This document shows positions 5,492-61,919 of a stretch of DNA of 64,000 nucleotides, in pieces (position 1 is the first letter of the stretch; every line of letters begins with the position of its first letter). Origin of the DNA: Parcubacteria group bacterium GW2011_GWA2_40_14 (GTDB lineage: Bacteria > Patescibacteriota > Minisyncoccia > Phycocordibacterales > DATDWN01); contig LBYF01000001.1 of NCBI GenBank assembly GCA_000996025.1, positions 3,507-67,506 on the forward strand, given 5' to 3'. The translations under genes and the position numbers were made by a program. The notes under the pieces are model-generated. The model searched no databases, was not told the origin of the DNA, and saw nothing but the letters and a program-made list of their open reading frames with translations.

Positions 5492-5500
5492 ACAAATAAG

Positions 5501-5540
5501 TTTATAAAGTTATAAAGTTTGTAAAGTTCATAAAGCTAAT
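5501..5540. repeat. Family-2 repeat (GTAAAGTTATAAAGTT words), partial copy upstream of nusA
   Basis: The sequence gtttataaagttataaagtttgtaaagttcataaagc recurs at 37634, 38802 and 56755. Confidence 0.6.
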
Positions 5541-6914: not shown

Positions 6915-7015
6915 AATATTTTGATATACTAGATACGAAGTAACGAATAAGTTAACGAATTGCAACGAATAGAATCCATTCGTAGCCATTCGTGTTTTAA
7001 TTCGTTACTTCGTAT
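6915..7015. repeat. Family-1 palindromic repeat (TACGAA/TTCGTA words); abuts the pilB start codon
   Basis: This copy is the reverse complement of the copies at 491-572 and 8884-8967, and it ends ...cgttacttcgtatATG. Confidence 0.75.
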
Positions 7016-8785
7016 ATGCATATTGAAGAAAAACAATTAAAAGATTTTATTTTGGACTCGGGGCTTGTCTCGCGGGCTGACTTAACTCTGGCTGAAAAAG
7101 AAGGTCTGGAAAAGGGAGTAAGCTTGGGCAAAGTTTTGGTGAGCAAAGGAAAGCTTTCAGAAGATGATTTACGACGGATGCAGGCCTATATTCTGGGTAT
7201 TCCTTTTGTGGACCTCAAGGGCGAGAAATTGCCATTTGAAGTTCTCTCTCTTATTCCGGAGCCGATTGCTCGCAATCACAATATTGTAGCTTTCAAGAAA
7301 ACAGACTCTAGTTTGGAGGTAGCTATGTTAGACACCGAGGATTTGACTGCCATTGATTTTATCAAAAAGAAAGTAGGCCTCCGAATTTTACCTCGCTTGA
7401 CCGATGCCGACTCTGTCAAAAGCGCAATCCTCCAATATCAAAAGTCTCTCAAGGCGGAGTTTGGCGATTTAATTGCCAAGGAGGTTTCGTCACTTGAATT
7501 GAATCCGCTGAAACGAAGTGAAGGCGATGAAAACGAGGTCATAACTACGACAGAAGATTTGAAAAAAATGGCCGATGATGTGCCTGTGGTGCGCATAGTG
7601 GATACATTGCTGAAGCATGCCATTTTGCAAAACGCATCCGACATTCACATAGAGCCGCAGGAGCTGGAACTTCTGGTTCGCTATCGTATTGATGGCTTGC
7701 TTCACGATGCCATGCTCCTGCCGAAAAATGTGGGAGCATCCATTGCCGCTCGTATCAAAGTTTTGGCCATGCTCAAGCTTGATGAAAAGCGTTTGCCACA
7801 GGACGGCAGATTCAAAATTGACATGAATGGCGAGAAAGTTTCTTTTCGTGTTTCCACCTTGCCGACATATTATGGTGAGAAAACAGTTATGCGACTCCTC
7901 CGCGAAAATGTTTCCGGCTTTACACTGGAATCCCTCGGTTTTCATGGTGTGGGACTGGAGCGTATTCACAGAGCCGTCCAATCCACGACCGGCATGATAC
8001 TGGCTACCGGCCCGACTGGTTCTGGAAAAACCACCACTTTGTATACTATTTTGGATATTTTAAATACTGTTGATGTCAATATTTCCACAATTGAAGACCC
8101 AATAGAATATCAGATGAAGCGTATTAACCAAACTCAAGTTCGTCCAGAGATAGGATTAACATTTGCAAACGGATTGCGCACTTTGGTTCGCCAAGACCCG
8201 GATATTATTATGGTCGGTGAAATTCGTGACAATGAAACGGCTAATCTGGCTATAAATGCGTCGCTCACCGGTCATGTCGTTCTCTCAACACTTCATACAA
8301 ACTCTGCCGCCGGAGCCGTCCCTCGCTTGATAGATATGAAAGTGGAACCGTTTCTTATTGTTTCCACTGTTAATGTTATTATTGCCCAGCGTCTTATCCG
8401 AAAACTTGGAGATGGAAAAGAAAAATATTTTTTGACCAAAGCCGAGCTTCTAACTTTGGGCAAGAGAGTTAATTTAGACAAAGTCTTAGCTACTTTGAAG
8501 GAAGAAAAAATTGTAGGTCAAAGCGATGTTTGGGAACAAGTTCCTTTTTGGCGCCTGAAAAAGAATGTTTCATCCGAAGACGGTTTCTCCGGACGCATTG
8601 GCATTCACGAAATATTGAAAGTTTCTTTGCCAATAAAAGATATTATTCTCAAAGACGGCACCTCGGACGCAATCCAAAAACAAGCTGAAAGCGAAGGTAT
8701 GCTGACTATGTTTGAGGACGGCATCTTCAAAGCGGTACAAGGTGTAACCACCATTGAGGAAGTTCTTAGGGTTATCTCGGAATAG
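7016..8785 (+). CDS. pilB: Type IV pilus / type II secretion assembly ATPase PilB/GspE
   Basis: The ORF has an N-terminal GspE-N domain, Walker A GPTGSGKTTT, and Asp and His boxes. Confidence 0.9.
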   Translation: MHIEEKQLKDFILDSGLVSRADLTLAEKEGLEKGVSLGKVLVSKGKLSEDDLRRMQAYILGIPFVDLKGEKLPFEVLSLIPEPIARNHNIVAFKKTDSSLEVAMLDTEDLTAIDFIKKKVGLRILPRLTDADSVKSAILQYQKSLKAEFGDLIAKEVSSLELNPLKRSEGDENEVITTTEDLKKMADDVPVVRIVDTLLKHAILQNASDIHIEPQELELLVRYRIDGLLHDAMLLPKNVGASIAARIKVLAMLKLDEKRLPQDGRFKIDMNGEKVSFRVSTLPTYYGEKTVMRLLRENVSGFTLESLGFHGVGLERIHRAVQSTTGMILATGPTGSGKTTTLYTILDILNTVDVNISTIEDPIEYQMKRINQTQVRPEIGLTFANGLRTLVRQDPDIIMVGEIRDNETANLAINASLTGHVVLSTLHTNSAAGAVPRLIDMKVEPFLIVSTVNVIIAQRLIRKLGDGKEKYFLTKAELLTLGKRVNLDKVLATLKEEKIVGQSDVWEQVPFWRLKKNVSSEDGFSGRIGIHEILKVSLPIKDIILKDGTSDAIQKQAESEGMLTMFEDGIFKAVQGVTTIEEVLRVISE

Positions 8786-8826: not shown

Positions 8827-8883
8827 AAAAAATAAATCTTATACACAATTTTTGTGAAAATAAAATAAAATTTTGGTACAATA

Positions 8884-8967
8884 AACATACGAAATAACGA
8901 ATTAAAACACGAATGGCTACGGATTATTCGTTGCAATTCGTAGACCCATTCGTTACTTCGTATATTT
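8884..8967. repeat. Family-1 palindromic repeat; abuts the pilC start codon
   Basis: The copy ends ...cgttacttcgtatatttATG. Confidence 0.75.
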
Positions 8968-23429: not shown

Positions 23430-23843
23430 ATGTCTACGATAAATCAGTTAGTCCGTCACAAGCGAACAAAAGTTAAAGTTAAGCCGCGAGCAGTGGCTCT
23501 TACTCGCGGATTTAACAATCTGACAAACCGTCCGGTTTTTTATCCTGCTCCATTCAAACGAGGGGTTTGCACAAAAGTAACAACAAAGACTCCAAAGAAA
23601 CCAAACTCTGCTATACGAAAGATTGCCCGTGTTCGTCTGACAAACGGCATGGAAGTGACAGCTTATATTCCGGGTATGGGACATACTCTACAAGAGCACT
23701 CTGTGGTTTTGCTTCGAGGCGGAAAGGTGAAAGATGTCGGTGTACGTTATACTATTGTCCGAGGGATGTTAGACGCGACTGGGGTAGAAAAGAGAATGAA
23801 GGGGCGAAGCCGTTACGGTGCCAAGAGACCGAAAGGCAAATAA
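23430..23843 (+). CDS. rpsL: 30S ribosomal protein S12
   Basis: [12 protein letters not shown]...[10 protein letters not shown] is S12-like. The start was moved to the internal ATG. Confidence 0.9.
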
Positions 23844-23936
23844 TCGAGACACGAGTACCGAGATACGAGAAACGAAGAAAATAAATGCATTCATAATCGT
23901 AATTCGGGTCTCGTAACTCTTAACTCTATCAAAAAG
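23844..23936. repeat. Family-3 palindromic repeat (CGTAACTCT words) between rpsL and rpsG
   Basis: The arms are cgagacacgagtaccgagatacgag...cgtaattcgggtctcgtaactcttaactc, and the copy ends 10 nt before the ATG. Confidence 0.7.
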
Positions 23937-24425
23937 ATGAGAAGAAAAGTCATAAACAGAAATATAGTTGGAAAAGATATTGAGTTCAACTCGGAAAAAG
24001 TTGGCAAATTTATTAATTATGTTATGGAAAGGGGTCAGAAAGAAACTGCGCGAAAAATTGTTTACGACGCATTTGAAATAATAAAAGATAAGGCGTTAGC
24101 TACGAAAGAAGCTACGATCGCGGATGCGCTTGAAATTTTTGAAACAGCTTTGAAAAATACGGGACCTTTGACAGAAGTTCGTTCACGAAGAGTTGGTGGG
24201 GCCAACTATCAGATTCCTCGTGAAGTTCGCCCAGAGAGACGAGTTTTCCTTTCCATGAAATGGATTATTGACTCTGCTCGCGATGGCAAGGGCAAGCCAA
24301 TGGCAAAAAAATTGGCAGATGAAATTATTTTAGCAAGTAAAAATGAAGGTAAAGCTGTTAAAAAGAGGGAAGATACGCACAAGATGGCGGAGGCCAATAA
24401 GGCCTTCGCCCATTTTGCATGGTAG
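23937..24425 (+). CDS. rpsG: 30S ribosomal protein S7
   Basis: The 162-aa ORF is typical S7 (GKKETA..VGGANYQIP). Confidence 0.9.
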   Translation: MRRKVINRNIVGKDIEFNSEKVGKFINYVMERGQKETARKIVYDAFEIIKDKALATKEATIADALEIFETALKNTGPLTEVRSRRVGGANYQIPREVRPERRVFLSMKWIIDSARDGKGKPMAKKLADEIILASKNEGKAVKKREDTHKMAEANKAFAHFAW

Positions 24426-31740: not shown

Positions 31741-31805
31741 CTTACGATATCTCGTAATAAATACACCTATCATACGCTATAGCGTATGATAGGTGTATAG
31801 TGAAC
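31741..31805. repeat. Family-7 perfect palindromes (cttacgatatctcgtaa; atacacctatcatacgctatagcgtatgataggtgtat)
   Basis: The second palindrome is nearly identical to the copy at 40262. Confidence 0.6.
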
Positions 31806-31925: not shown

Positions 31926-32291
31926 TTGATATATAAAACTGTCGGAAAAGTTTATCGTCCTATTTTGAAAGAATATGTTACTTTTAATTCTAAAGGTTTT
32001 TATCACTTACGATACGATACTCACGAGAAAGCGAGAAGGGTGAAAGAACAAATATACAAATTTAATTTGCTTCCACTTATTATTCCCGCAATTAAAAACG
32101 CAAAAAATGTGTTTGATTATAAAAAAGAGCAGTATTCCAAACTCCTTGGCAAATATTACGAAATATGGGAACTTCGAGAAACTGTTGGAGGGAAAAACCC
32201 AACTTCGCTATCTGTGATTTTGAGAAGGATCGGGAACGGAAATATTACATTTCTTAGTGTGTATGACAGAAAACCAAAAATGAAAAAATAG
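31926..32291 (+). CDS. Hypothetical protein; the C-terminal half weakly resembles RelE/ParE-fold toxins
   Basis: YEIWELRETVGG...SVILRRIGNGNITFLSVYDRK echoes the RelE pattern (ELR..YRIIY..V.IL.IGHRK). The match is weak. Confidence 0.3.
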   Translation: MIYKTVGKVYRPILKEYVTFNSKGFYHLRYDTHEKARRVKEQIYKFNLLPLIIPAIKNAKNVFDYKKEQYSKLLGKYYEIWELRETVGGKNPTSLSVILRRIGNGNITFLSVYDRKPKMKK

Positions 32292-33019: not shown

Positions 33020-33655
33020 ATGACTAAATTTATATTAGGCACAAAAATAAATATGACCCAAATCTTTGACGAGGCGGGGATTGTTCATCCAGTAACTGCC
33101 ATCAAGGCGGGACCGATGATTGTCACACAGGTTAAGTCTGAAAAAACAGATGGTTATTCTGCCATCCAAGTCGGTTTTGGCGCACGCAAAGCAAAAAATA
33201 TAAATAAACCTTTGAGAGGTCATATTAAAGATAATAATTTTATGTATCTTCGCGAATTTCGTACAGATGATACACAGGGTAACCCTGTGTATACTGTCGG
33301 CGATGCGATTGACATTTCCACTTTTTCTGAAGGTGATAAAGTTACTGTTTCCAGTATTTCAAAAGGCAAAGGTTTTCAAGGTGTTGTAAAGCGACACGGT
33401 TTTAAAGGGGGTCCTCGTTCACACGGACAAAAGCATTCCGAACGCGAGCCGGGCTCTATAGGTGGCGGTGGTCGTGACGGCGGACGTGTGGCAAAAGGAA
33501 AAAGAATGGCAGGTCGTATGGGCGGAGACAGAATCACTTCAAAAGGTTTGACGATAGTTTCTGTCAAACCAGAAACAGGCGAGCTTTTTATTCGTGGAGC
33601 GGTGCCGGGAAGAAGGGGAACATTAATAGAGATAAGAGATACGAGTAAAGAGTAA
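33020..33655 (+). CDS. rplC: 50S ribosomal protein L3
   Basis: MTKFILGTKINMTQIFDEAG begins a typical L3. The last 7 codons are encoded by the family-3 repeat arm. Confidence 0.9.
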   Translation: MTKFILGTKINMTQIFDEAGIVHPVTAIKAGPMIVTQVKSEKTDGYSAIQVGFGARKAKNINKPLRGHIKDNNFMYLREFRTDDTQGNPVYTVGDAIDISTFSEGDKVTVSSISKGKGFQGVVKRHGFKGGPRSHGQKHSEREPGSIGGGGRDGGRVAKGKRMAGRMGGDRITSKGLTIVSVKPETGELFIRGAVPGRRGTLIEIRDTSKE

Positions 33656-33710
33656 CGGATTTGAATTATTCGTAACTCGTATCTCGATACTCGTAACTCT
33701 ATTCAAAATT
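33640..33710. repeat. Family-3 palindromic repeat overlapping the rplC 3' end
   Basis: The arms are agagataagagatacgagtaaagagtaacg / cgtaactcgtatctcgatactcgtaactct, and the copy ends at the rplD ATG. Confidence 0.75.
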
Positions 33711-34427
33711 ATGGAAGGAACAATTTACAACCAAAAAGGAAAGGAATCAGGAAAAATCTCCCTGCCGGAAGCAGTTTTTGGTTTGAAGTGGAATGCCGAC
33801 CTTGTGCATCAGGTTGTTGTTTCTATGGAATCAAGCGCCCGTACACCTGTGGCTCATGCAAAAAACCGTGGGGATGTAAGAGGCGGAGGTAAAAAGCCAT
33901 GGAAGCAAAAAGGCACTGGTCGTGCTCGCCATGGTTCAATCCGTTCTCCCCTCTGGAGACATGGAGGTGTTACGCACGGCCCAACAAATCTGAAAAATTT
34001 TGATAGAAAAATAAACAAGAAAATGAAAGCCAAAGCGCTTTACACAATCCTTTCCAAAAAATTTAAAGATAATCAGGTAGTTTTTGTTGATAAGATTGAA
34101 TTTTCTTCTATAAAAACAAAATTTGCGAAAGAAGTGATGGATTCACTGTTTGATAAAGCTTCAAAAAAGAAAAACAATGCAATTCTTCTTACAATTCCAA
34201 AGAAAGATAAAAACGTGGAAAAAAGTTTCAGTAATTTTGGCAATCTAAAAGTGGATGAAATTCGAAACATTAGTCCGATTGATTTGATGAAATATAAATA
34301 TGTTGCTATCGTTGATCCAGAAAAAGGTCTACCACAAATTTCTAATAAAATCGAGGTAAGAGTAAAGAGTAAAGAGTTACGAAAAATCCAAAATTCAGAT
34401 TCTAAACTCGATACTCATAACTCGTAA
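33711..34427 (+). CDS. rplD: 50S ribosomal protein L4 with a repeat-encoded C-terminal tail
   Basis: The L4 core is followed by 25 aa (VRVKSKELRKIQNSDSKLDTHNS) encoded by a family-3 repeat. Confidence 0.9.
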   Translation: MEGTIYNQKGKESGKISLPEAVFGLKWNADLVHQVVVSMESSARTPVAHAKNRGDVRGGGKKPWKQKGTGRARHGSIRSPLWRHGGVTHGPTNLKNFDRKINKKMKAKALYTILSKKFKDNQVVFVDKIEFSSIKTKFAKEVMDSLFDKASKKKNNAILLTIPKKDKNVEKSFSNFGNLKVDEIRNISPIDLMKYKYVAIVDPEKGLPQISNKIEVRVKSKELRKIQNSDSKLDTHNS

Positions 34428-34438
34428 CTCTACCCAAT
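34355..34438. repeat. Family-3 palindromic repeat overlapping the rplD 3' end
   Basis: The copy reads gagtaaagagtaaagagttacg...cgatactcataactcgtaactct. Confidence 0.7.
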
Positions 34439-34772: not shown

Positions 34773-35615
34773 ATGAAAAGATATAAACCAACAACAAAAT
34801 CCCGCCGACAAATGACAACTATTTCATTTGGGGATTTTGTGACAACAAACGAGCCGGAGAAATCGTTAACGCACGGTTTCCGAAGACAAATGGGACGAAA
34901 CCATCACGGCAAAGTAACAACTCGTCACAAAGGAGGTGGTCACAAAAGACTCTTCCGAGAGATTGATTTTAAATACGACAAAATAAATGTTCCGTACACT
35001 ATAAAAACAGTAGAGTATGACCCAAACCGCTCTGGCTTTATTGGCTTGGCACAGTATAAAGATGGTGAGAAAAGATACGTTCTTCTTCCTCGTGGAGTAA
35101 AAGTGGGCGATATCCTAGTGACTTCGGAGACAGCAGAAGTAAAAGTTGGAAACAGGCTACCTCTCCGTAACATCACTATCGGCACATTTGTTTACAATGT
35201 AGAAGTCAAGCCAAAAGGTGGCGCAAAAATGGCTCGTTCTGCAGGAAACTTTGTGGAGGTCATTGCAAAGGACGCCGGTTATGTGGACATCAAACTTCCT
35301 TCTACTGAAATCCGCAAAGTGTTGGACACAGCATGGGCATCAATTGGAGATGTTTCAAATCAGGAAAACCGACTGGTCAATCTCGGCAAAGCCGGCCGTT
35401 CACGATGGCTTGGCATACGCCCAACTGTTCGTGGTACGGCCATGAACCCAGTTGACCACCCACACGGAGGAGGTGAAGGTCGCCAAGGTCGCGGCCGCAG
35501 ACGAGCAATCTCCATCTACGGTAAGGGAACAGGAAAGGGTCAGAAGTCCCGAACTCCAAAGAAGTACTCCAATAAATTCATCGTCTCACGAAGAAAAGTT
35601 GGAAAAAGAAAGTAA
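34773..35615 (+). CDS. rplB: 50S ribosomal protein L2
   Basis: MKRYKPTTKSRRQMT...GGGHKR...HPHGGGEG are L2 signatures. The start was moved to the internal ATG. Confidence 0.9.
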   Translation: MKRYKPTTKSRRQMTTISFGDFVTTNEPEKSLTHGFRRQMGRNHHGKVTTRHKGGGHKRLFREIDFKYDKINVPYTIKTVEYDPNRSGFIGLAQYKDGEKRYVLLPRGVKVGDILVTSETAEVKVGNRLPLRNITIGTFVYNVEVKPKGGAKMARSAGNFVEVIAKDAGYVDIKLPSTEIRKVLDTAWASIGDVSNQENRLVNLGKAGRSRWLGIRPTVRGTAMNPVDHPHGGGEGRQGRGRRRAISIYGKGTGKGQKSRTPKKYSNKFIVSRRKVGKRK

Positions 35616-35644
35616 AAATGATATAGTTGGTTGAGGAGGGACAC

Positions 35645-35893
35645 ATGAGTCTAGAAGAGAGAGAGAGCTTAGAGACAATCGCCAGTCAATTAGGAAAAGA
35701 ATTGGTCGGAGTTATTCCGGGCGTTTGGGGCACCAGTCTTACTGCAAGGCCTGTAAAAGAGCCAGAGTTAAAGCTTAAAGTGATTTGTACCGAGGAAGCT
35801 AAACAAAAAGTTCTTCAAAAATACGGCGACGATAGTTACCGAGGTCATAAACTTTATTTTCAAATTTCAGAACAAGGTCCTCGATTTGCGTAA
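35645..35893 (+). CDS. Hypothetical 82-aa protein inserted between rplB and rpsS, with a strong SD (GAGGAGGG) and its own terminator
   Basis: This is an ORF call. It has an SD 6 nt upstream of the ATG and is followed by a GC hairpin plus T-run. No family was recognised. Confidence 0.5.
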   Translation: MSLEERESLETIASQLGKELVGVIPGVWGTSLTARPVKEPELKLKVICTEEAKQKVLQKYGDDSYRGHKLYFQISEQGPRFA

Positions 35894-35905
35894 CCATAAT
35901 TTTCT

Positions 35906-35936
35906 CCAGGGCGGTCCAGGCGACCGCCCTTTTTCA
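35906..35936 (+). terminator. Rho-independent terminator (gggcggtc caggc gaccgccc plus a T-run)
   Basis: The GC-rich stem is unusual in this AT-rich context. Confidence 0.7.
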
Positions 35937-35965
35937 TTTGACAATATATAGTATATTATATAGTA
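35937..35965 (+). promoter_or_regulatory. Internal sigma70-type promoter ahead of rpsS (TTGACA - 17 nt - TAGTAT)
   Basis: The hexamers and spacing are a perfect consensus, directly after the terminator. Confidence 0.55.
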
Positions 35966-36055
35966 TGTAGCCCAAGTAAAGAGCCCATTACCTCTTATAC
36001 GATTTGTTTGCGGTAGTCGACAGAATACCACTAACAAAGTGGTTTTTAATTTGTT

Positions 36056-36100
36056 TTTTTATTCGTATCCATTCGTGTTTTAATTCGTTATTTCGTATTT
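36056..36100. repeat. Family-1 repeat half-copy abutting the rpsS ATG
   Basis: The sequence is attcgtatccattcgtgttttaattcgttatttcgtatttATG. Confidence 0.65.
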
Positions 36101-36454
36101 ATGACAAGGTCATCAAAAAAAGGTCCATATGTAGATGAACGAGTTCTCAAGAAAATTGAGGGCAAAAAGCCACTTGAAACAGGGGTTATTAAAACGTGGT
36201 CAAGAGCTTGTGTCATATCACCAGAAATGGTCGGTTTTAATTTTGGTGTTCACAATGGCAGAACTCATCTGGAAGTTCTTGTCTCCGAAGACATGGTCGG
36301 ACACCGTCTGGGTGAATTTTCTCCAACTAAAAAGTTTATAAAACACGGAGGAAAGATGCAGAAAGAGCAAGAGCAGAAAGCAAAGGAAGGCGAGATTGCC
36401 GCCGCACAGTCTGCAAAGGCAGTGACCGCTGAACCAGCAGGAGCAAAAAAATAA
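36101..36454 (+). CDS. rpsS: 30S ribosomal protein S19 with a 24-aa K/Q/A-rich C-terminal extension
   Basis: [13 protein letters not shown]...GHRLGEF is the S19 core. Confidence 0.9.
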
Positions 36455-36465
36455 CCGCGATACAA

Positions 36466-36545
36466 ATATGCGAATACATACGAATAAAACGAATAGAATA
36501 CAAGAAATGGAATTAATTTTCGTATCATTCGCATAAATTCGTATA
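36466..36545. repeat. Degenerate family-1 repeat upstream of rplV
   Basis: The tacgaata / attcgcata words are arranged palindromically. Confidence 0.5.
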
Positions 36546-36563: not shown

Positions 36564-36962
36564 ATGAAAACTGCTCACGCCACACTTTCAAATTTCCGAC
36601 AAGCACCACGCAAAATGCGTATGGTGGCAAATACTGTACGTGGTAAAAGAGTTGTTGATGCCTTGATTAATTTGGAATTTACTGCAAAAAAAGCCTCACT
36701 TCCTATAAAAACTCTTATACAATCTGCCGTGGCAAATGCAAAAGCTATGGACTTGCCTACAGAAAATCTAATAATAAAAACTATCAAAGTAGATTCAGGC
36801 AAAATTTTATACAGGCGAATGCCAGCCGCTCAAGGAAGCGCGCACCCTATACGTAAGAGAACCAGTTCAATCTTTGTTGAACTGGGCGAGAATCGAGAAC
36901 CGAGTACCGAGAAACGAAAAATCAAGAATCCAAAATCGAAACTCGTATCTCGTATCTCTTAA
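36564..36962 (+). CDS. rplV: 50S ribosomal protein L22 with a repeat-encoded C-terminal tail
   Basis: The L22 core is followed by ENREPSTEKRKIKNPKSKLVSRIS, which is encoded by the family-3 repeat. Confidence 0.85.
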   Translation: MKTAHATLSNFRQAPRKMRMVANTVRGKRVVDALINLEFTAKKASLPIKTLIQSAVANAKAMDLPTENLIIKTIKVDSGKILYRRMPAAQGSAHPIRKRTSSIFVELGENREPSTEKRKIKNPKSKLVSRIS

Positions 36963-36973
36963 CTCTACCTACC
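36885..36973. repeat. Family-3 palindromic repeat overlapping the rplV 3' end
   Basis: The copy reads gagaatcgagaaccgagtaccgagaaacg...cgaaactcgtatctcgtatctcttaactct. Confidence 0.7.
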
Positions 36974-37633
36974 ATGACACATACCGTTCATCCATATTCA
37001 CATCGCCTAGGAATCATCCGAGATTGGAAATCTCGCTGGTTTGGCGTAAAAAATAAATACAAGGAATTTTTGAAAAGTGATGTGCTTTTACGGGAGTATT
37101 TGGAGAAAAAACTTCGTGATAACTATGTCAGCAATATAGAAATGGAGCGAGGTGAGAAAGTGTTGCGTATTATTATTGAGACATCTCGTCCAGGTATGAT
37201 TATTGGTCGCTCAGGTGATGGCGCCGTTAAATTAAAAAAGGATATTTCTGCATTTTTGAATAAACATAAACTTTCTCCTCTCGGCGAAGTGAAAGTGGAT
37301 ATAAAAGAAATTAAATCTCCCGAGTCAAACGCCACAATCGTTGCCCAAATGGTTGCCGATGGATTGGAAAAGCGTTTGCCTTTCCGCCGTGTGGTGAAAC
37401 AGATGGTGGAAAAAGTTATGGCAAATCGTGATGTCCTTGGTGTAAAGATAGAATTGTCTGGACGACTCGGTGGCGCTTCAATGGCACGTCAGGAAAAAAT
37501 AAAGAAAGGTCGTATTCCGCTTCAGACTTTCCGCGCCGATGTGGATTTTTGTAAATATAAAACAAGAGTCCCTTATGGGGGTGTTGGTATTAAGGTTTGG
37601 ATATATAAGGGAGAAGTGTTCGCAAAAAAGTAA
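36974..37633 (+). CDS. rpsC: 30S ribosomal protein S3
   Basis: The 219-aa ORF has a KH domain and the S3 C-terminus. Confidence 0.9.
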   Translation: MTHTVHPYSHRLGIIRDWKSRWFGVKNKYKEFLKSDVLLREYLEKKLRDNYVSNIEMERGEKVLRIIIETSRPGMIIGRSGDGAVKLKKDISAFLNKHKLSPLGEVKVDIKEIKSPESNATIVAQMVADGLEKRLPFRRVVKQMVEKVMANRDVLGVKIELSGRLGGASMARQEKIKKGRIPLQTFRADVDFCKYKTRVPYGGVGIKVWIYKGEVFAKK

Positions 37634-37721
37634 AAAGTTTGTAAAGTTATAAAGTTCATAAAGTAAAATCCATAATCCACTTTACAAACTTTAAAAACTT
37701 TCAACTTTATAAACTAAATTT
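37634..37721. repeat. Family-2 palindromic repeat between rpsC and rplP
   Basis: The copy reads aaagtttgtaaagttataaagttcataaagt ... ctttacaaactttaaaaactttcaactttataaact. Confidence 0.75.
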
Positions 37722-38138
37722 ATGTTGTTACCAAAAAAAGTAAAATACAGAAAGTGGCAAACATTTCGAAAGAACGCTAATAAAGTTGGTGTGGCTTCAC
37801 GTGGTACCACTATTTCTTTCGGCTCTCATGCCTTGAAAGCCCTGTCAGGAGCGCGTATTATGTCAAACCAGATTGAAGCTGGCAGAAAAGCCCTATCTCG
37901 CGCAGTTGGTAAGACCGGCAAGATTTGGATCCGCATTTTTCCAGATATGCCCCTGACCAAAAAGCCAGCTGAAGTGAAGCTTGGTAAAGGAAAGGGTGAT
38001 TTGTTTGGCTACTGCGCGCCGGTTAAGCCAGGAAGAATTATTTTTGAAGTTGATGGTGTTACGGATGCAGTTGCCAGAGAAGCTTTGCGAAAAGCTGGAA
38101 CGAAATTACCCCTCAAAACAAAGATAATCTCTCACTAG
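37722..38138 (+). CDS. rplP: 50S ribosomal protein L16
   Basis: [11 protein letters not shown]...GKGKGD is typical of L16. Confidence 0.9.
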
Positions 38139-38543: not shown

Positions 38544-38801
38544 ATGAATAATGAAAAAATAAAAAATAATACAGTAAAAACTCTCTCGGGAGTAGTAGTG
38601 TCAAATAAGATGACAGACACTGTTGTGGTGGAAGTTGTTCGTTTTGTAAAACATCCAAAGTACGGCAAGTACGTCTCTAAAAGCAAAAAGTTTAAAGCCC
38701 ACGATGTCGGCAATACAAAGCAAATTGGGGATAAGGTTACCATAGAGGAGTGCAGACCAATTTCAAAAGATAAACACTTTAGAATAGTCGAAAGTTCGTA
38801 A
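38544..38801 (+). CDS. rpsQ: 30S ribosomal protein S17
   Basis: [18 protein letters not shown]...HD is the S17 OB fold. Confidence 0.85.
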
Positions 38802-38878
38802 AGTTATAAAGTTCATAAAGCAGACTCAAAACCCACTTTACAAACTTTAAAAACTTTATAACTTTATAAACTAAAATT
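38802..38878. repeat. Family-2 palindromic repeat between rpsQ and rplN
   Basis: The copy reads gaaagttcgtaaagttataaagttcataaagc...ctttacaaactttaaaaactttataactttataaact. Confidence 0.75.
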
Positions 38879-39250
38879 ATGATCCAACCGCAATCAATTG
38901 TCAAAATAGCAGATAACACCGGAGCAAAAATCGGACGCGTGTTCAAAGTGCTCGGAAGTTCCAAAAAGAGATACGCCAGCATAGGCGAGTTGGTGGTTCT
39001 CTCTGTCCAGAAAGCTGAACCTAGAAAAACAACAAAGAAAAAAGATATTTTGTATGCAGTGGTTGTCCGTCAACGAGCGCCTTTTCGAAGAAAGGACGGC
39101 TCATATATTCGTTTTGACGAAAATGCAGTAGTTATAGTGGTCAAAGATAAAAAAGAGCCGGTAGCAGGACGTATTTTCGGTCCTATCCCGCGGGAACTTG
39201 GTGAGATGGGGTATCAAAAGATTATTAGTTTAGCCCCAGAAGTAGTCTAA
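38879..39250 (+). CDS. rplN: 50S ribosomal protein L14
   Basis: MIQPQSIVKIADNTGAK is typical of L14. Confidence 0.9.
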   Translation: MIQPQSIVKIADNTGAKIGRVFKVLGSSKKRYASIGELVVLSVQKAEPRKTTKKKDILYAVVVRQRAPFRRKDGSYIRFDENAVVIVVKDKKEPVAGRIFGPIPRELGEMGYQKIISLAPEVV

Positions 39251-39335
39251 AATTGAGTCAAGAGTAGCGAGATAAGAGTCACGAAGAATGCAAAATCGTA
39301 ACTCGAGTCTCGGAACTCGTAACTCTATCAATATC
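39251..39335. repeat. Family-3 palindromic repeat between rplN and rplX
   Basis: The copy reads gagtagcgagataagagtcacg...cgtaactcgagtctcggaactcgtaactct. It creates a spurious upstream ORF extension of rplX. Confidence 0.7.
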
Positions 39336-39602
39336 ATGAATGTAAAAAAAGATGACAAAGTAATAGTGCTCACCGGTAAAGACAAAGGTAAAACAGGAAC
39401 CGTTGTCAAATCATTTCCAAAAGAAAACAGAGTCATTGTTTCTGGTGTAAATATTTTGAAAGTTCATCAGAAGCCTCGAAAGAGTGGAGAGAAAGGACAG
39501 ATACTAGACAAGACCATGCCGATAGATGTATCCAACGTAAAAAGGGTCGAGGCACGAGGTACGAGAAAAGAGACCCGAAAAATCAAAGGCTCAAAATCGT
39601 AA
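39336..39602 (+). CDS. rplX: 50S ribosomal protein L24 with a repeat-encoded C-terminal tail
   Basis: MNVKKDDKVIVLTGKDKGK is the KOW domain. The track ORF starts 16 codons upstream, inside the repeat. Confidence 0.85.
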   Translation: MNVKKDDKVIVLTGKDKGKTGTVVKSFPKENRVIVSGVNILKVHQKPRKSGEKGQILDKTMPIDVSNVKRVEARGTRKETRKIKGSKS

Positions 39603-39637
39603 CTCTATACTCGTAACTCTTAACTCTATTAAAAACT
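39560..39637. repeat. Family-3 palindromic repeat overlapping the rplX 3' end
   Basis: The copy reads gtacgagaaaagagacccg...cgtaactctatactcgtaactcttaactct. Confidence 0.7.
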
Positions 39638-40261: not shown

Positions 40262-40310
40262 TTTTTTACTCATACACCTATCACACGCTATAGCGTGTGA
40301 TAGGTGTATG
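40262..40310. repeat. Family-7 perfect palindrome (20-bp stem, GCTATAGC centre)
   Basis: The sequence is actcatacacctatcacacgctatagcgtgtgataggtgtatgagt. Confidence 0.7.
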
Positions 40311-40424
40311 AGTTGAACAAGTTTTAATAGGTTTATATATTATTATGTGCTAATATTAATAATAGAAGTTGAGACAGTTTAGTCTCAATATATTTTGTCA
40401 GAAATCACGACTAAAGGAGAAAGT

Positions 40425-40664
40425 ATGAAGTCAAAGAGTTATCTTGGATTTTTGATGTTGTTGGCGTTGATGTTATTTTTGGTTTTGCTTCCGTCCGCAT
40501 TTTCAAGTGTCTATCAAAACACCGGAAACGGGTTGATTCCAGAGTGGACATTTGGAACAAAAACACAAGACCGTGTTGAGACAAACCAAAAGAAGGAGTG
40601 TTTTGAGACGGATGCAAAACAGCCATTCAAGTTTGATGTCTGTTATGTGCCAAACAGACCTTAG
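40425..40664 (+). CDS. Small secreted/membrane protein (signal-anchor) with an SD (AAGGAG)
   Basis: MKSKSYLGFLMLLALMLFLVLLPSAF is a hydrophobic N-terminus. The ORF is inserted between rplE and rpsN. Confidence 0.45.
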   Translation: MKSKSYLGFLMLLALMLFLVLLPSAFSSVYQNTGNGLIPEWTFGTKTQDRVETNQKKECFETDAKQPFKFDVCYVPNRP

Positions 40665-40937
40665 AGAAAGAAAGACGTTCCAGCTTCGACCTTGCCGAAC
40701 TTTTCTCTGCTGTAAAGTCCACGAACTATAAGGAGTTAAAACTTGTATTTGTGGCCACAAGTAGGAGTGGAGATGTAAGTAAAGTTGAATGCACATTCAA
40801 GTTTCAATGAACTGGGCGGGTGGATTTTCAAGGCGGTGAGGAGAGACCTGCCGCCTTTTTGTTTTGTTTGACAATTTGTGTGTATATATGGTAGTTTGTT
40901 TTTAGAATCAGTTCGTCAAAAACAGGGGGGATTATCG

Positions 40938-41912
40938 ATGTCAAAGACTCAACAGCTTGGCAAAAACATGAGTCCAAGCAAAACAAAACTGGGAAAGTTT
41001 TTACGAAAATGTCGTATTAAACTTGGATTAAGGCAAGTTGAAGTAGGCAGACTTTCAATGGTTAAACAATCAGACTACAGTCATTTTGAAACTGGTAGAT
41101 CCAAATATCTCAATCCCAAACAAATCAAAGGTTTAGCCAAAACTCTGAAGTGTCAAGAGGTGGAATTGGAAATTCTTGTTCCACCAAAACCAAAACCAAA
41201 ACAGGAACCTACAACTGAACTCGGCTTACTTATCCGCAACCGAAGGGAAGAGCTTGGGCTGACGATTGAGACTTTTGCCAAAAAGCTCAAAATATCCCTG
41301 GCACAAGCAAAATGTTTGGAAACCCGAATAGCCGAGCGAATGAAGTACAAGTTGTTTGAACCTCTTTTAAGAGTTCTGGAATTAAAACCGTCAGATTTAG
41401 GTAGATTTGTGGGCTGGACTAAAAACGAAAGCCTCACCAGTTTAGGTCAAGTCATCCGTTCACGCCGTAAAGAGCTTGGATTTTCGTTAGCAAGTCTTGG
41501 CCAGAAATTAGGTATCACTCGCGAGCGAGTACGTCAGATTGAGAATAATCGGTCTTCCTTTAGTAATAAAGGGAATAAACTTAAGAAGATAGCTAAAATT
41601 CTCAATCTGAATTTTTCTGAATTGCAAGCATTACAGCCGGCGCGGAGATTCAAAAGAGGCAAGATAGGTACCGACACATTTGGTGGGTTTCTGACTGCTC
41701 GGAGGGTAGAACTTCACCTGACACAATACGAACTTGCTGAACGTGTGGGAATTTCACCAAACACAATCTGTGCCACAGAATTAGGAAAATTTGTGCCTAA
41801 TTCCGATATGTTGGGAAAGATGGCGACGGCTCTTGACTGCGTTATTCCATCTCAACTCATTCTGATTCCTCGTAAGCGCGGTCGTCCTCGGAAGGATTTG
41901 ATTAACTCGTGA
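40938..41912 (+). CDS. Four-repeat XRE-type helix-turn-helix DNA-binding protein with a C-terminal AT-hook (RGRPRK)
   Basis: There are four HTH_XRE-like units (LRQVEVGRLS..., LTIETFAKKL..., FSLASLGQKLGITRERVRQIE..., LTQYELAERVGISPNTIC...), an SD (aggggg), and the ORF sits inside the spc operon. Confidence 0.7.
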   Translation: MSKTQQLGKNMSPSKTKLGKFLRKCRIKLGLRQVEVGRLSMVKQSDYSHFETGRSKYLNPKQIKGLAKTLKCQEVELEILVPPKPKPKQEPTTELGLLIRNRREELGLTIETFAKKLKISLAQAKCLETRIAERMKYKLFEPLLRVLELKPSDLGRFVGWTKNESLTSLGQVIRSRRKELGFSLASLGQKLGITRERVRQIENNRSSFSNKGNKLKKIAKILNLNFSELQALQPARRFKRGKIGTDTFGGFLTARRVELHLTQYELAERVGISPNTICATELGKFVPNSDMLGKMATALDCVIPSQLILIPRKRGRPRKDLINS

Positions 41913-41924
41913 CTGAACTGAATA

Positions 41925-41965
41925 GCCCGTGACCCTCTTTTGGGGTCATGGGCTCATTTATTTTC
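41925..41965 (+). terminator. Rho-independent terminator after the HTH gene (gcccgtgaccc / gggtcatgggc plus a T-run)
   Basis: The GC-rich stem is followed by a T-run. Confidence 0.65.
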
Positions 41966-42030
41966 ATTTGACTTTGTAGATTCTCTTTGCTACTATCTTT
42001 TGAGCTTGCAAAAGCTATTTTTTGTTAGAT

Positions 42031-46407: not shown

Positions 46408-47022
46408 ATGTATATGGACAGAGGAGAAGAATACAAAAAAAGGCTAAAAGACTTTCTAGATTCTGATACTACAGAAGCAAAAATTGCAATGGTGGCTCTT
46501 TGTGTATTTGCTGTAGCCTCCCTCCCCATTCTCGTGGTTGGGGTTGCGGCTATGGGTAATGTGGTGCAGACGTTTCAGATGTTTAAGAGGTCTAAAAAGT
46601 ATTCTAGAATGCAAATTCAAAGCGCGGTTGAAAGTACTAAGCGTCAAAAGCTTATAGAATATGTTACTGACAAAGACGGAAAAACAATAGTAAAAATTAC
46701 AAAGAAAGGTGAAACTAAGTTAAGAACTTTTGACATTGAGCTTATGTGTATTAATACGCCAAAGAAATGGGATGGTAAATGGAGATTGGTCATGTTTGAT
46801 ATTCCTATGCGATTTACAAAAGGCAGAGAAGCTCTGAGATATCATTTGAAAAATTTAGGTTTTCTCCAATTTCAGAAATCCGCATGGATACACCCTTTTC
46901 CTTGTGAAGATGAAATCTTGTTTATTGCCGATTTTTTTGGAATAGGGAAGCACGTGGAAATTTTAACTGTAGAAAATCTCTTAAACGACGAAAAATTAAA
47001 GAAACATTTCCGACTTGATTAG
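46408..47022 (+). CDS. Membrane-anchored PaaX C-terminal-domain-like (Cas2/VapD-fold) protein
   Basis: There is an N-terminal TM. KKWDGKWRLVMFDIPMRFTKGREALRYHLKNLGFLQFQKSAWIHP matches the PaaX_C W-G-W motif region. Confidence 0.5.
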   Translation: MYMDRGEEYKKRLKDFLDSDTTEAKIAMVALCVFAVASLPILVVGVAAMGNVVQTFQMFKRSKKYSRMQIQSAVESTKRQKLIEYVTDKDGKTIVKITKKGETKLRTFDIELMCINTPKKWDGKWRLVMFDIPMRFTKGREALRYHLKNLGFLQFQKSAWIHPFPCEDEILFIADFFGIGKHVEILTVENLLNDEKLKKHFRLD

Positions 47023-47863: not shown

Positions 47864-48184
47864 GTGTTTTTGGTGTATAATAAAGAAATGAAATTAAGTA
47901 TTGAGGAAATAAAAGAAAAAATAACTCCGATTTTGGAGAAGTACGGCGTGACTTACGCCGGTGTTTTCGGTAGTGTGGCGCGCGGTGATGCTCGTCCGGA
48001 CAGTGACGTGGATATTCTCGTTAAAATCCGTAATCCCATTAGCATATTCGTCTTTTTTAAGATGAATGATGAATTGGAAGAAATATTGGGACGAAAGGTG
48101 GATTTAGTGACGGAAAACTCTCTTATTCGTTATTTCAAGCCATATGTGATGCTTGATTTAAAGCCACTCTATGAAGTCAGATAA
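47864..48184 (+). CDS. Nucleotidyltransferase antitoxin MntA (minimal NTase)
   Basis: GVFGSVARGDARPDSDVDILV is the pol-beta-type NTase signature. Confidence 0.8.
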   Translation: MFLVYNKEMKLSIEEIKEKITPILEKYGVTYAGVFGSVARGDARPDSDVDILVKIRNPISIFVFFKMNDELEEILGRKVDLVTENSLIRYFKPYVMLDLKPLYEVR

Positions 48185-48488
48185 AGTATACTGCGAATAT
48201 ATTATCAGTTGTATAGATAAAGTTGGCCGTTTTACTTCTGGAATGAAACGAGAGGATTTTCTTGCAAGTGAGTTAGTGCAAAGTGCAGTAATCTTGCAAC
48301 TCCTTCTTATTGGTGAATTGTCAAAAAATTTATCGTCTGAATTTAAGAAAAGTACTGATTTGCCTTGGACACAAATTTCCGGTTTCCGAAATAGAGCAAT
48401 CCATAATTATTATGAACTTGAGCTGGAATTCGTTTGGTTTGCAGTTCAAAATGATTTGTTTCCTATTAAAGAAGCTGTCTCCAAATAA
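48171..48488 (+). CDS. HepT (DUF86) HEPN-family toxin
   Basis: RNRAIHNY matches the R-x4-H-x-Y HEPN motif. The gene overlaps the NTase gene by 14 nt. Confidence 0.8.
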   Translation: MKSDKVYCEYIISCIDKVGRFTSGMKREDFLASELVQSAVILQLLLIGELSKNLSSEFKKSTDLPWTQISGFRNRAIHNYYELELEFVWFAVQNDLFPIKEAVSK

Positions 48489-49129: not shown

Positions 49130-49399
49130 ATGACACAAGTAGTTATAAATTTCAAAACGGATGCTAAGCTAAAGAGCGCAGCCAAAGATGTTCTCGATGA
49201 GATGGGTCTGAATTTTTCCATTGCTTTTAACGCCTACATGAAAAAGTTGATTACTGAGAGGAGAATAGAGTTTACCACGCCAGAGATACCCAACGCTCGA
49301 CTCCGGAAAGCAATAAAAGAGGCGGATAAAGAGTATAAGAGCGGTAAGTTAAAGTTTTATACTGATATGCGCGAGATGCGCAAGTCATTAGGTGTATAA
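49130..49399 (+). CDS. RelB/DinJ-family antitoxin
   Basis: The small RHH-like protein immediately precedes a YafQ-like toxin. Confidence 0.6.
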   Translation: MTQVVINFKTDAKLKSAAKDVLDEMGLNFSIAFNAYMKKLITERRIEFTTPEIPNARLRKAIKEADKEYKSGKLKFYTDMREMRKSLGV

Positions 49400-49402
49400 A
49401 CT

Positions 49403-49663
49403 ATGCACATCGCTTTTTCTTCGAGTCTTAATAAAAAGATTAAGAAAATTCCAACAAAAATAGTTGATAAATTTTTTGAGCGATTGGAGATTTTTAAAAA
49501 GGATATATTTAGTCCAATTTTAAACAATCATAAATTGCACGCTGAATACGAAGGGTGTAGCAGTATAAATGTCACAGGTAATTTTCGAGCGATATTTAAG
49601 CATGTCGATGATAATCATGTCGTTTTTTCTGATTTAGATACTCACCCCGAACTCTACGGCTAA
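49403..49663 (+). CDS. YafQ/RelE-family mRNA interferase toxin
   Basis: The C-terminus HKLHAEYEGCSSINVTGNFRAIFKHVDDNHVVFSDLDTHPELYG parallels the YafQ C-terminus. Confidence 0.65.
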   Translation: MHIAFSSSLNKKIKKIPTKIVDKFFERLEIFKKDIFSPILNNHKLHAEYEGCSSINVTGNFRAIFKHVDDNHVVFSDLDTHPELYG

Positions 49664-56754: not shown

Positions 56755-56844
56755 GTTTAGTTTGTAAAGTTATAAAGTTTGTAAAGTTTCTAAAGTGGAA
56801 TGCATTTGATGTTACTTTATGAACTTTATAACTTTATGAACTTT
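56755..56844. repeat. Family-2 palindromic repeat between infC and rpmI
   Basis: The copy reads tttgtaaagttataaagtttgtaaagtttctaaagt...ctttatgaactttataactttatgaactttc. Confidence 0.75.
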
Positions 56845-61380: not shown

Positions 61381-61919
61381 TGTTGTGGCGCTTCACGAGT
61401 ACATTCAGCATCCTACAAAAATATAGTCGCTTCGCTTGTTATTTTGTGGAAGTGGCGATATCGAAATCGCATGCATACAGAGAATTGAAACGAATCTACA
61501 GCGCGTAGTTTATTTAATGTTTAAATCATATTGCTTGGAACAAACAAAATGCGATACAATCGAGTCTTCTTTATTTCAAAATATTTCCGAGACAAAAAAT
61601 ATTTCTAACCTCAAGTTATGTCAATCAACTCCTCGTACGAGATATGTGAGGAGCGACCGTCTCTTAGGGCTGTTGTTTAGACAGTGGCGTAAGAGAAAGC
61701 GAAGTCGTTTGCTCCATAAAATGGAGAGACGATTGCTTTAGATAAGTTTTTTACACTTAATCTTTCCAAACTGTTTTAGGAGAGCTTGGCGCTCCGCGTT
61801 GCCTGAATCAATGTCATCTATATGTCAAAACCTGTCACTCCCGAAAAATAGTAGTCAATAGCTAGTATTTAGTAGCCAGGTGAAGACAACTACTTTTCGG
61901 GAATTTTTGGTTTATCTTG

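What the first reader, a model, noticed from the sequence alone, without database searches (positions are those of the whole stretch)
35627..35965. S10 operon split: 82-aa SD-bearing ORF with GC-rich terminator inserted between rplB and rpsS, followed by a new consensus promoter
Between L2 and S19, which are normally adjacent and co-transcribed, sits an ORF with a strong GAGGAGGG SD. It is followed by an atypically GC-rich intrinsic terminator, then TTGACA-17-TAGTAT, then a family-1 repeat abutting the rpsS ATG. This is a cassette-like insertion that rewires transcription of the downstream ribosomal genes.
Basis: seen in the sequence. Interest (0 to 1): 0.55.

Follow-up and report, generated by a model that had tools for sequence, protein, structure and literature searches.

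The report
Small gene in split ribosomal operon
A real but uncharacterised 82-residue gene with its own terminator sits between ribosomal genes L2 and S19 in a groundwater Parcubacteria genome. The promoter that restarts transcription at S19 is an old feature of the whole clade, and this gap is a recurrent landing site for unrelated genes.

Summary
There is an 82-aa ORF (35645-35893) behind GAGGAGGG. A 9-bp GC-rich hairpin plus U-tract follows (35908-35935). Then come TTGACA-17-TAGTAT (35938-35966), a 134-nt leader, an ATTCGT repeat, and the rpsS ATG (36101).

The ORF is a genuine gene. It belongs to a tiny unannotated family of about 83-aa proteins, and pN is far below pS. AlphaFold gives a confident alpha-beta-beta-alpha-beta fold. 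Four family members lie in the rplB|rpsS gap. Others follow secY or a comEC-like gene. Each of the six members with DNA available has an AGGAGG-type SD and a strong terminator.

The "cassette that rewires transcription" reading is only half right. In 19 related Paceibacteria species the rplB|rpsS junction is expanded in at least 14, with unrelated contents. Neighbouring junctions from L3 to L16 stay compact. A TTGAC-N17-TAGTAT promoter precedes rpsS in 8 of 12 relatives, including two with almost no insert. Homology between the window and an X-less relative starts exactly at the -35 box.

So the rpsS promoter is ancestral. X contributes the terminator that makes the split complete. The function of X is unknown: it is near-neutral in charge, has no family match, and shows only weak fold resemblance to nucleotidyltransferase and KH domains. 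Interest is moderate.

The parts
34812..35615 (+). rplB (L2), last conserved gene of the upstream transcription unit rpsJ-rplC-rplD-rplW-rplB
   Evidence: PF00181/PF03947 on the identical gene in L001. ORF list. The stop codon TAA is at 35613-35615.
35599..35627 (+). Candidate promoter of gene X itself, overlapping the rplB 3' end: TTGGAA-17-TATAGT preceded by TG (extended -10, TGaTATAGT). Inferred, not shown.
   Evidence: Scored 9/12 with TG. The same TGaTA(G/C)T(A/C)T motif lies 4-12 nt before the SD of the X homologues in L089, L086 and L090.
35633..35640 (+). Shine-Dalgarno sequence GAGGAGGG of gene X
   Evidence: Sequence. All six homologous loci have AGGAGG or GGGAGG at the same distance. 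SD-led genes are rare in this window, and the ribosomal protein genes lack an SD (and sequences).
35645..35893 (+). Gene X: an 82-aa near-neutral (pI 6.6) alpha-beta-beta-alpha-beta protein. It is a member of a small unannotated family found only in Zambryskibacteria-like metagenome contigs.
   Evidence: Homologues at 31-59% identity. pN 0.26-0.48 against pS 0.63-0.82. AF2 pLDDT 80.5. No Pfam, NCBIfam, PHROGs or PADLOC match. NCBI names it a hypothetical protein.
35908..35935 (+). Intrinsic terminator ending the rpsJ...rplB-X unit: 9-bp stem, 5-nt loop, U5
   Evidence: -17.9 kcal/mol. The equivalent hairpin plus U-tract follows every X homologue at -13.9 to -17.4 kcal/mol. Window versus L089 shows a compensatory G-C to A-U change at the stem base.
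35938..35966 (+). rpsS promoter TTGACA-17-TAGTAT, ancestral to the clade
   Evidence: It is conserved in L087 and L003, and the exact pattern is present upstream of rpsS in 8 of 12 relatives.
35967..36100 (+). Conserved rpsS leader of about 130 nt. It holds a 5' hairpin (AAGAG 35979-35983 / CUCUU 35992-35996). It also holds a terminator-like hairpin ACCAC-UAACAAA-GUGGU (36027-36043) plus U5 (36044-36048). That hairpin competes with an alternative stem (36003-36015 / 36026-36038). ATTCGT repeats (36061-36100) follow.
   Evidence: Leader identity to L087 and L003 is 68-73%, while synonymous sites in X are saturated. The alifold consensus picks the alternative stem. The terminator scan picks the ACCAC hairpin. 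A hairpin plus U-tract occurs in the rpsS leader of 10 of 14 loci, against 0.09 expected per 140 nt. No Rfam family matches.
36101..36454 (+). rpsS (S19), first gene of the downstream unit rpsS-rplV-rpsC-rplP-rpmC-rpsQ-rplN-rplX-rplE
   Evidence: PF00203. ORF list.

Best explanation
**Organism.** The window comes from a Parcubacteria (Paceibacteria, Zambryskibacteria-like) genome.

**Ancestral state.** In this clade the otherwise universal rplB-rpsS adjacency is an operon boundary. rpsS and the genes after it have their own strong sigma-70-type promoter (TTGAC-N17-TAGTAT) and a structured leader. Because downstream expression no longer depends on read-through from rplB, the interval between the rplB stop codon and the rpsS -35 box tolerates insertions. 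That interval has become a turnover hot spot holding unrelated genes in different lineages.

**The occupant here.** In this genome and a few close relatives the occupant is gene X, an 82-aa member of a small uncharacterised protein family.
- X behaves as a self-contained expression unit.
- It has a probable extended -10 promoter inside the rplB 3' end, a strong SD that is unusual for this genome, the ORF, and a GC-rich intrinsic terminator.
- X is probably also transcribed by read-through from rplB, because the 29-nt spacer holds no terminator.

**Effect on transcription.** The X terminator ends the rpsJ...rplB(-X) transcript. Eight nucleotides after the stem (3 nt past the U5 tract), the ancestral rpsS promoter starts the rpsS...rplE transcript. 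X therefore supplies the insulation, and the clade supplies the restart.

**Shown.** The elements exist and are conserved. X is a real gene. The breakpoint is clade-wide and the promoter predates X.

**Inferred.** Actual termination and initiation have not been measured. X's own promoter is a prediction. X most likely encodes a small cytoplasmic binding or regulatory protein that is not an enzyme. It lacks the catalytic carboxylates of the nucleotidyltransferase cores it weakly resembles. I treat it as an accessory gene rather than a ribosome component.
For: - **Elements at the stated coordinates:**
- **Breakpoint:** The rplB|rpsS gap exceeds 300 nt in 10 of 12 relatives, and 4 more have no rpsS within 4 kb. 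None of 11-19 relatives exceeds 300 nt at the L3|L4, L4|L23, L23|L2, S19|L22, L22|S3 or S3|L16 junctions. None of 60 genomes in other phyla does at rplB|rpsS.
- **Unrelated slot contents:** DUF5674, DAGK, a PurC-like gene on the minus strand, a large methyltransferase-like ORF, and orphans. The PurC-like and methyltransferase labels come from reading the translations, not from a search.
- **Promoter older than X:** The exact pattern sits upstream of rpsS in 8 of 12 relatives, including those with 67-nt and 177-nt gaps. These account for 8 of only 13 occurrences in 306 kb. Window/L087/L003 homology starts at the -35 box.
- **X is real:** homologues, pN far below pS, and the AF2 model.
- **Module conserved around X homologues in three different genomic contexts:**
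- **No foreign signature:** X is 42% GC against 39% for the window.
- **A parallel case:** A second terminator-then-promoter junction of the same design (41924-41996) follows another insertion between rplE and rpsN in this window.
Against: - There are no transcript data, so termination efficiency and promoter use are predictions.
- Single promoter matches are only modestly better than shuffles in this AT-rich DNA.
- Four of seven X-family contexts lie in the rplB|rpsS slot and a fifth follows secY. This could mean a functional tie to translation rather than a neutral landing site.
- X homologues after secY (L086) also carry a TTGACT directly behind the terminator. A portable terminator-promoter pair is therefore not fully excluded.
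- The relatives sampled number only 19 species representatives, chosen by L2 similarity.
Confidence: 0.7

Rival explanations
1. X arrived as a cassette that carried its own terminator and an outward-facing promoter. Its insertion split a previously continuous S10 operon and rewired rpsS expression.
For: A terminator immediately followed by TTGAC occurs behind X here and in L087. It also occurs behind the distant homologue placed after secY in L086. X homologues occupy at least three different genomic sites in close relatives, which suggests mobility.
Against: The rpsS promoter and leader are present without X in L003, L017, L009 and five further relatives. Homology to the X-less L003 starts at the -35 box. 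In L089 another gene follows X rather than a promoter and rpsS. No flanking repeats, no integrase or transposase, and no viral copies were found.
Confidence: 0.1
2. X is a lineage-specific factor associated with translation or the ribosome. It might be an RNA-binding KH-like protein or a regulator of ribosomal protein operons. On this view its position in ribosomal gene clusters reflects function, not tolerance.
Confidence: 0.15
3. X is a degenerate minimal nucleotidyltransferase (MNT-like, antitoxin-derived) domain that has lost catalysis.
Against: Profile-profile comparison of the X family with a 35-sequence MNT alignment gives 3% probability, and it aligns a different segment. No family member hits PF01909 or PF18765 at E <= 10. 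The DxD and third carboxylate are absent. There is no HEPN partner.
Confidence: 0.1
4. The ORF is spurious or the arrangement is an assembly artefact.
For: The family is very small, and most homologues sit on short contigs.
Against: More than 20 independent contigs show the same arrangement. Length and motifs are conserved at 31-59% identity. pN is far below pS. The SD and terminator are conserved. The AF2 fold is confident.
Confidence: 0.02

Closest known systems
Internal promoters and operon boundaries in the bacterial ribosomal protein supercluster (E. coli S10 / spc / alpha operons; internal promoters in the Bacillus S10-spc-alpha cluster)
   Same: A long, conserved run of ribosomal protein genes is cut into several transcription units by terminator-promoter pairs. 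Each unit starts with a leader (established knowledge).
   Different: The boundary lies between rplB and rpsS, inside what is a single S10 operon elsewhere. In 60 non-CPR genomes this gap has a median of 24 nt. The boundary is clade-specific and doubles as an insertion hot spot.
E. coli S10 leader, where L4 and NusA drive attenuation
   Same: The rpsS leader contains a hairpin plus U-tract between promoter and first gene, with an alternative competing stem. This is the layout of an attenuator.
   Different: There is no sequence or Rfam similarity. The element lies in front of rpsS, not rpsJ. No regulator is known. With only three alignable sequences there is no covariation support.
Minimal nucleotidyltransferase (MNT; PF01909/PF18765) and type II KH domains
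   Different: There is no sequence or profile similarity. There are no catalytic DxD carboxylates and no GXXG loop. Foldseek gives nothing at E <= 1e-3.
Integron-type gene cassettes
   Different: Integron cassettes lack a promoter and end in an attC site next to an integrase. X has an SD, probably its own promoter, and a plain Rho-independent terminator. I saw no attC core sites and no integrase nearby (sequence inspection; ORFs).

Membership tests
Intrinsic (Rho-independent) terminator | A G+C-rich stem-loop immediately followed by a U-tract, downstream of a stop codon | tested here: met
   35908-35930 plus U5, at -17.9 kcal/mol and z = -3.5. It is conserved behind all six X homologues, with one compensatory change.
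Intrinsic (Rho-independent) terminator | Transcripts actually end there | not testable with these tools
   This needs Term-seq or RNA-seq.
Sigma-70-type promoter | -35 TTGACA and -10 TATAAT-like hexamers 17 +/- 1 nt apart, conserved in orthologous positions | tested here: met
   TTGACA-17-TAGTAT. It is conserved in L087 and L003 while the spacer diverges. It is present in 8 of 12 relatives upstream of rpsS.
Known ribosomal protein leaders and other Rfam families | A match to a curated covariance model | tested here: not met
   No hit at gathering thresholds anywhere near the locus. Only sub-threshold chance-level hits at E <= 10.
Transcription attenuator | Mutually exclusive terminator and antiterminator helices supported by covariation | tested here: inconclusive
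   Both helices can be drawn. Only three alignable sequences exist, and just one pair changes on both sides.
Minimal nucleotidyltransferase (PF01909/PF18765) | The hG[GS] motif, [DE]x[DE] catalytic carboxylates, and profile similarity | tested here: not met
   hhalign probability of 3-6%. No Pfam hit for any of 8 members at E <= 10. The alignment shows no DxD.
Type II KH domain | A GXXG loop between two helices, and significant structural similarity | tested here: not met
Ribosomal protein | Broad conservation, a strongly basic protein, and a known family | tested here: not met
   pI 6.6. Absent from 19 related species. No Pfam or NCBIfam match.
Phage or defence-system gene | A match to PHROGs or PADLOC, or presence on viral contigs | tested here: not met
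Integron gene cassette | An attC recombination site and an integron integrase context | not tested
   Sequence inspection only. Only a simple terminator hairpin follows the ORF, and the neighbours are ribosomal genes.

The most novel reading that the evidence does not exclude
The rplB|rpsS slot, together with similar sites at the ends of highly expressed operons such as secY and comEC, could be a preferred landing pad. The cargo would be a new class of tiny self-contained expression modules: an extended -10 promoter, a strong SD, an ORF of about 83 aa, and a terminator. These modules would move among Paceibacteria genomes by an unknown mechanism. Alternatively or additionally, the conserved rpsS leader, with its competing hairpins and U-tract, could be a previously undescribed CPR attenuator that autoregulates the S19-L5 operon.
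Probability: 0.15. Interest if true: 0.65.

Novelty: new variant of a known kind. Interest (0 to 1): 0.4.

Why it matters
The order L3-L4-L23-L2-S19-L22-S3 is among the most conserved gene arrangements in prokaryotes. Here a whole CPR clade has L2|S19 as a promoter-bearing boundary that repeatedly accepts foreign or orphan genes. This shows how an internal promoter can relax selection on operon continuity. It also gives a concrete, testable locus for studying transcription signals in uncultivated Parcubacteria. Those signals include the TTGAC-N17-TAGTAT consensus, terminators abutting promoters, and SD-less ribosomal genes beside an SD-led accessory gene. The analysis also defines a new small protein family and a conserved rpsS leader that could be regulatory. 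Nothing here overturns known principles.

Tried and rejected
- **Family libraries.** Single-sequence and per-member scans of Pfam, NCBIfam, PHROGs and PADLOC found nothing.
- **Spurious hit.** The 3331-aa hit P0005 in the full HMMER search is a repeat-rich surface protein. I treat the match as spurious, on my reading of its sequence.
- **PDB sequence search.** A profile search gave only chance RGS4 hits at E of 0.06.
- **Fold searches.** Foldseek against PDB and viral structures gave nothing at E <= 1e-3. The afdb50 library was unavailable.
- **MNT homology.** I suspected it by eye, but two hhalign tests rejected it.
- **Metagenome scans.** A scan with the 8-sequence alignment failed for lack of conserved blocks. 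The 4-sequence scan returned only a contig I already had.
- **Viral contigs.** No relative was found.
- **Cluster variants.** All members at 90% identity have identical sequence and differ only in the called start. They offer no population-level test.
- **Literature.** Searches for Parcubacteria or Patescibacteria ribosomal operon organisation found nothing on this junction.
- **Target-site duplications.** Only a 7-mer, ATATAGT, is shared by the two edges of the slot. That is not meaningful in AT-rich DNA (sequence inspection).
- **Minus strand.** The 56-aa ORF at 35867-36037 has no support.

Full report
**Source and observation.**
The window matches Parcubacteria group bacterium GW2011_GWF2_39_8b and several Candidatus Zambryskibacteria MAGs.
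- rplB ends at 35615.
- GAGGAGGG lies at 35633-35640, and the ATG at 35645 opens an 82-codon ORF ending at 35893.
- A 9-bp hairpin with 7 G-C pairs sits at 35908-35930, followed by U5.
- TTGACA (35938), a 17-nt spacer and TAGTAT (ending at 35966) come next.
- A 47-nt ATTCGT-type repeat (36061-36107) abuts the rpsS ATG at 36101.

The hairpin is 78% GC in a 39% GC window and folds at -17.9 kcal/mol. More than 20 independently assembled contigs carry the same arrangement.

**Is the ORF a gene?**
Yes. The word-indexed search found only the protein itself. The exhaustive HMMER search of 1.84 billion representatives found seven small proteins of 83-108 aa at 31-59% identity. They share the motifs LGxELVG(I/V)(I/M)PGVWG, CTEEAK, KYG and YRGxKLYF. 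An eighth hit, a 3331-aa repeat-rich protein, I treat as spurious.

Between loci, non-synonymous differences (pN 0.26-0.48) are far below saturated synonymous differences (pS 0.63-0.82). AlphaFold2 gives the same alpha-beta-beta-alpha-beta fold with or without the alignment, at pLDDT 77 and 80.5.

No family library recognises any member: Pfam, NCBIfam, PHROGs and PADLOC all fail. No viral contig encodes a relative.

**What the fold says.**
- Foldseek finds nothing at E <= 1e-3 in PDB or BFVD, with TM-scores below 0.5 against PDB.
- I suspected a degenerate MNT domain by eye. Profile-profile comparison with a 35-member MNT alignment gave 3% probability. The catalytic carboxylates are also missing.
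- X is near-neutral (pI 6.6), unlike its neighbours L2, S19 and L23 (pI 9.7-10.6).

The function remains unknown. My best guess is a small non-enzymatic binding or regulatory protein.

**Context of the family.**

| Context | Loci |
|---|---|
| Between rplB and rpsS | the window; the P0009 contig (L23-L2-X-S19-L22); L089 (L2 91% identical; another ORF follows X); L087 (X then S19, 87.5% identical) |
| 29 nt after secY | L086 (secY 83% identical to the window's) |
| After a comEC-like gene | L090 |
| Unrelated neighbours | L083 |

- All six loci with DNA available have an AGGAGG-type SD. All have a strong hairpin (-13.9 to -17.9 kcal/mol) plus U-tract right after the stop codon.
- Four also have a TGaTAnnnT extended -10-like motif a few nucleotides before the SD.
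- In the window this motif pairs with TTGGAA inside the rplB 3' end (35599-35627).
- SD-led genes are rare in this window, and the ribosomal protein genes have no SD.

X therefore looks like a self-contained expression unit.

**The decisive comparison.**
I fetched 80 loci around L2 homologues from species-representative genomes. Nineteen of them are close Paceibacteria relatives with 59-86% L2 identity.
- None encodes X.
- The rplB|rpsS interval exceeds 300 nt in 10 of the 12 where rpsS lies within 4 kb (median 718 nt, maximum 3.6 kb).
- Four more have no rpsS within 4 kb.
- The junctions L3|L4, L4|L23, L23|L2, S19|L22, L22|S3 and S3|L16 are never expanded.
- S10|L3 is a second, weaker hot spot, expanded in 5 of 15.
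- In 60 genomes from other phyla the rplB|rpsS gap has a median of 24 nt and never exceeds 300 nt.

The inserted genes are unrelated to one another. They include DUF5674, diacylglycerol kinase, a PurC-like gene on the opposite strand, a large methyltransferase-like ORF, peptidoglycan-binding-like proteins and many orphans. Only DUF5674 and the kinase were confirmed by a Pfam search. The other labels are my reading of the translations.

**The promoter predates X.**
- A TTGAC(A/T/C)-N17-TAGTAT promoter lies upstream of rpsS in 8 of 12 relatives. These include L017, whose gap is only 67 nt, and L009, with 177 nt.
- The exact pattern occurs only 13 times in 306 kb of these loci, and 8 of the 13 are at rpsS.
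- In the 64-kb window it occurs five times. Two of those sites are in front of rpsJ (32436) and rpsS (35938).
- Aligning the window with L087 (has X) and L003 (has a different 132-aa ORF) shows that homology starts exactly at the -35 hexamer. It continues through the leader to the ATG at 68-73% identity. The sequence upstream of the -35 box is unrelated in L003.

The rpsS promoter and leader are therefore ancestral. X supplies only the terminator. Relatives with short gaps (L017, L009) show no terminator between rplB and the promoter. The internal promoter thus probably came first and made the site permissive.

**How it most likely works.**
1. The rpsJ promoter (32436) drives S10-L3-L4-L23-L2.
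2. Transcription reads into X, because the 29-nt spacer holds no terminator. X may also fire from its own extended -10 promoter.
3. The hairpin at 35908-35930 terminates the transcript.
4. Eight nucleotides after the stem, the rpsS promoter starts the S19...L5 transcript with a leader of about 130 nt.

A second junction of the same design lies downstream. A terminator at 41924-41954 is followed by TTGACT-17-TACTAT at 41968. It follows another insertion, of 89-aa and 344-aa ORFs, between rplE and rpsN.

**The leader.**
- It contains a terminator-like hairpin (ACCAC/GUGGU, 36027-36043, plus U5) and a competing stem (36003-36015 with 36026-36038), which RNAalifold prefers.
- A hairpin plus U-tract lies between promoter and rpsS in 10 of 14 loci, against 0.09 expected per 140 nt.
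- This is attenuator-like. It could equally be a 5' stabiliser plus a U-rich ribosome loading site for an SD-less mRNA.
- Three alignable sequences give no covariation test, and Rfam has no match.

**Literature.**
Full-text searches found nothing on this junction or on this protein family.

**Verdict.**
The locus is a new variant of a known kind: an operon boundary with terminator and promoter that hosts an accessory gene. Two points are moderately interesting. One is a clade-wide break of the near-universal L2-S19 adjacency that acts as an insertion hot spot. The other is a new small protein family that travels with its own expression signals.

Noticed in passing
window 33618-33701, 34349-34432, 36884-36967, 39244-39327, 39545-39628, 23842-23940; also 37626-37724, 38783-38881, 5499-5535, 56759-56842; ATTCGT/ACGAAT type at 489-574, 8881-8966, 6978-7024, 36061-36107, 36460-36545: Most spacers between ribosomal protein genes carry families of short-period (about 9-10 nt) repeats. 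They are arranged as long imperfect inverted repeats (for example GAGTTACGAG ... CTCGTAACTC). The 5' arm often lies inside the C-terminal tail of the upstream gene, and the 3' arm ends at the next ATG. These genes have no SD. The copy at rpsS has only the 3' (ATTCGT) half. A similar TACGAA/TTCGTA array precedes rpsS in the distant CPR locus L023 (3530-3626).
   Followed up: partly
window 31761-31798 and 40272-40309; L001 10608-10721: Two near-identical 38-bp perfect palindromes (ATACACCTATCA(T/C)ACGCTATAGCGT(A/G)TGATAGGTGTAT) bracket the 8.5-kb rpsJ...rplE block. One public assembly (ERZ27254759) folds back into an inverted duplicate exactly at the second palindrome. That is probably an assembly artefact caused by the palindrome.
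   Followed up: partly
window 40395-41996: A second interruption of the ribosomal cluster lies between rplE and rpsN. An 89-aa ORF with a hydrophobic N-terminus (SD-led start at 40425) and a 344-aa ORF are followed by a 13-bp GC-rich terminator (41924-41954). I read the 344-aa product as a multi-HTH protein, without a domain search. TTGACT-17-TACTAT (41968-41996) comes next. A 5' hairpin AGCUUGCAAAAGCU plus U-tract lies before the rpsN ATG (42033). The design matches the X/rpsS junction.
   Followed up: partly
rpsS leaders in L006, L009, L011, L012, L019, L020, L021 (and by eye L007, L016); window 36027-36048 and 42003-42022: A short hairpin followed by a U-tract sits between the promoter and the first gene of ribosomal protein units. 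It occurs in 10 of 14 rpsS leaders, against 0.09 expected per 140 nt. Three cases share the sequence AGCU(C/U)-loop-(A/G)AGCU. It may be an attenuator, or a 5' stabiliser plus a U-rich ribosome loading site.
   Followed up: partly
window-wide; for example the starts at 33711, 34439, 36101, 36974, 39638: Ribosomal protein genes and most other genes in this window lack a Shine-Dalgarno sequence. Only about eight plausible genes have one: starts at 6772(-), 7325, 9857(-), 35645, 40425, 53119, 55468 and 57515. Some genes look nearly leaderless; at 46408 a TATAAT lies 9 nt before the ATG.
   Followed up: partly
window 47864-48488 and 49130-49663: Two apparent toxin-antitoxin pairs are inserted between secY and the adk/map genes of the ribosomal supercluster. 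The first is an MNT nucleotidyltransferase (PF18765/PF01909 on the identical protein) followed by an overlapping HEPN-like ORF with an RNRAIH motif. The second is an 89-aa plus 86-aa pair that looks RelB/RelE-like. The HEPN and RelBE assignments come from inspection only.
   Followed up: no
window 31926-32291; L001 2300-2551: An unannotated ORF lies between tuf and rpsJ, so that junction is interrupted too. It is 121 aa in the window but was called as 83 aa in another assembly of the same population, so the strains or gene calls differ there.
   Followed up: no
window 61444-61842 (-): A tmRNA gene (Rfam RF00023, 76.9 bits). ARAGORN reported no tRNA or tmRNA in the window.
   Followed up: no
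L003 4847-5291: In the closest species representative the slot holds an unrelated 132-aa orphan ORF. It has its own TTGACA-16-TAGTAT promoter directly after rplB, followed by two long hairpins without U-tracts before the rpsS promoter.
   Followed up: partly
L004 7304-8208: In one relative, ORFs that I read by eye as rplJ and rplL lie about 2.5 kb downstream of rplB, and no rpsS is found within 4 kb. The rplB|rpsS junction may therefore also be a rearrangement breakpoint. No domain search was run.
   Followed up: no
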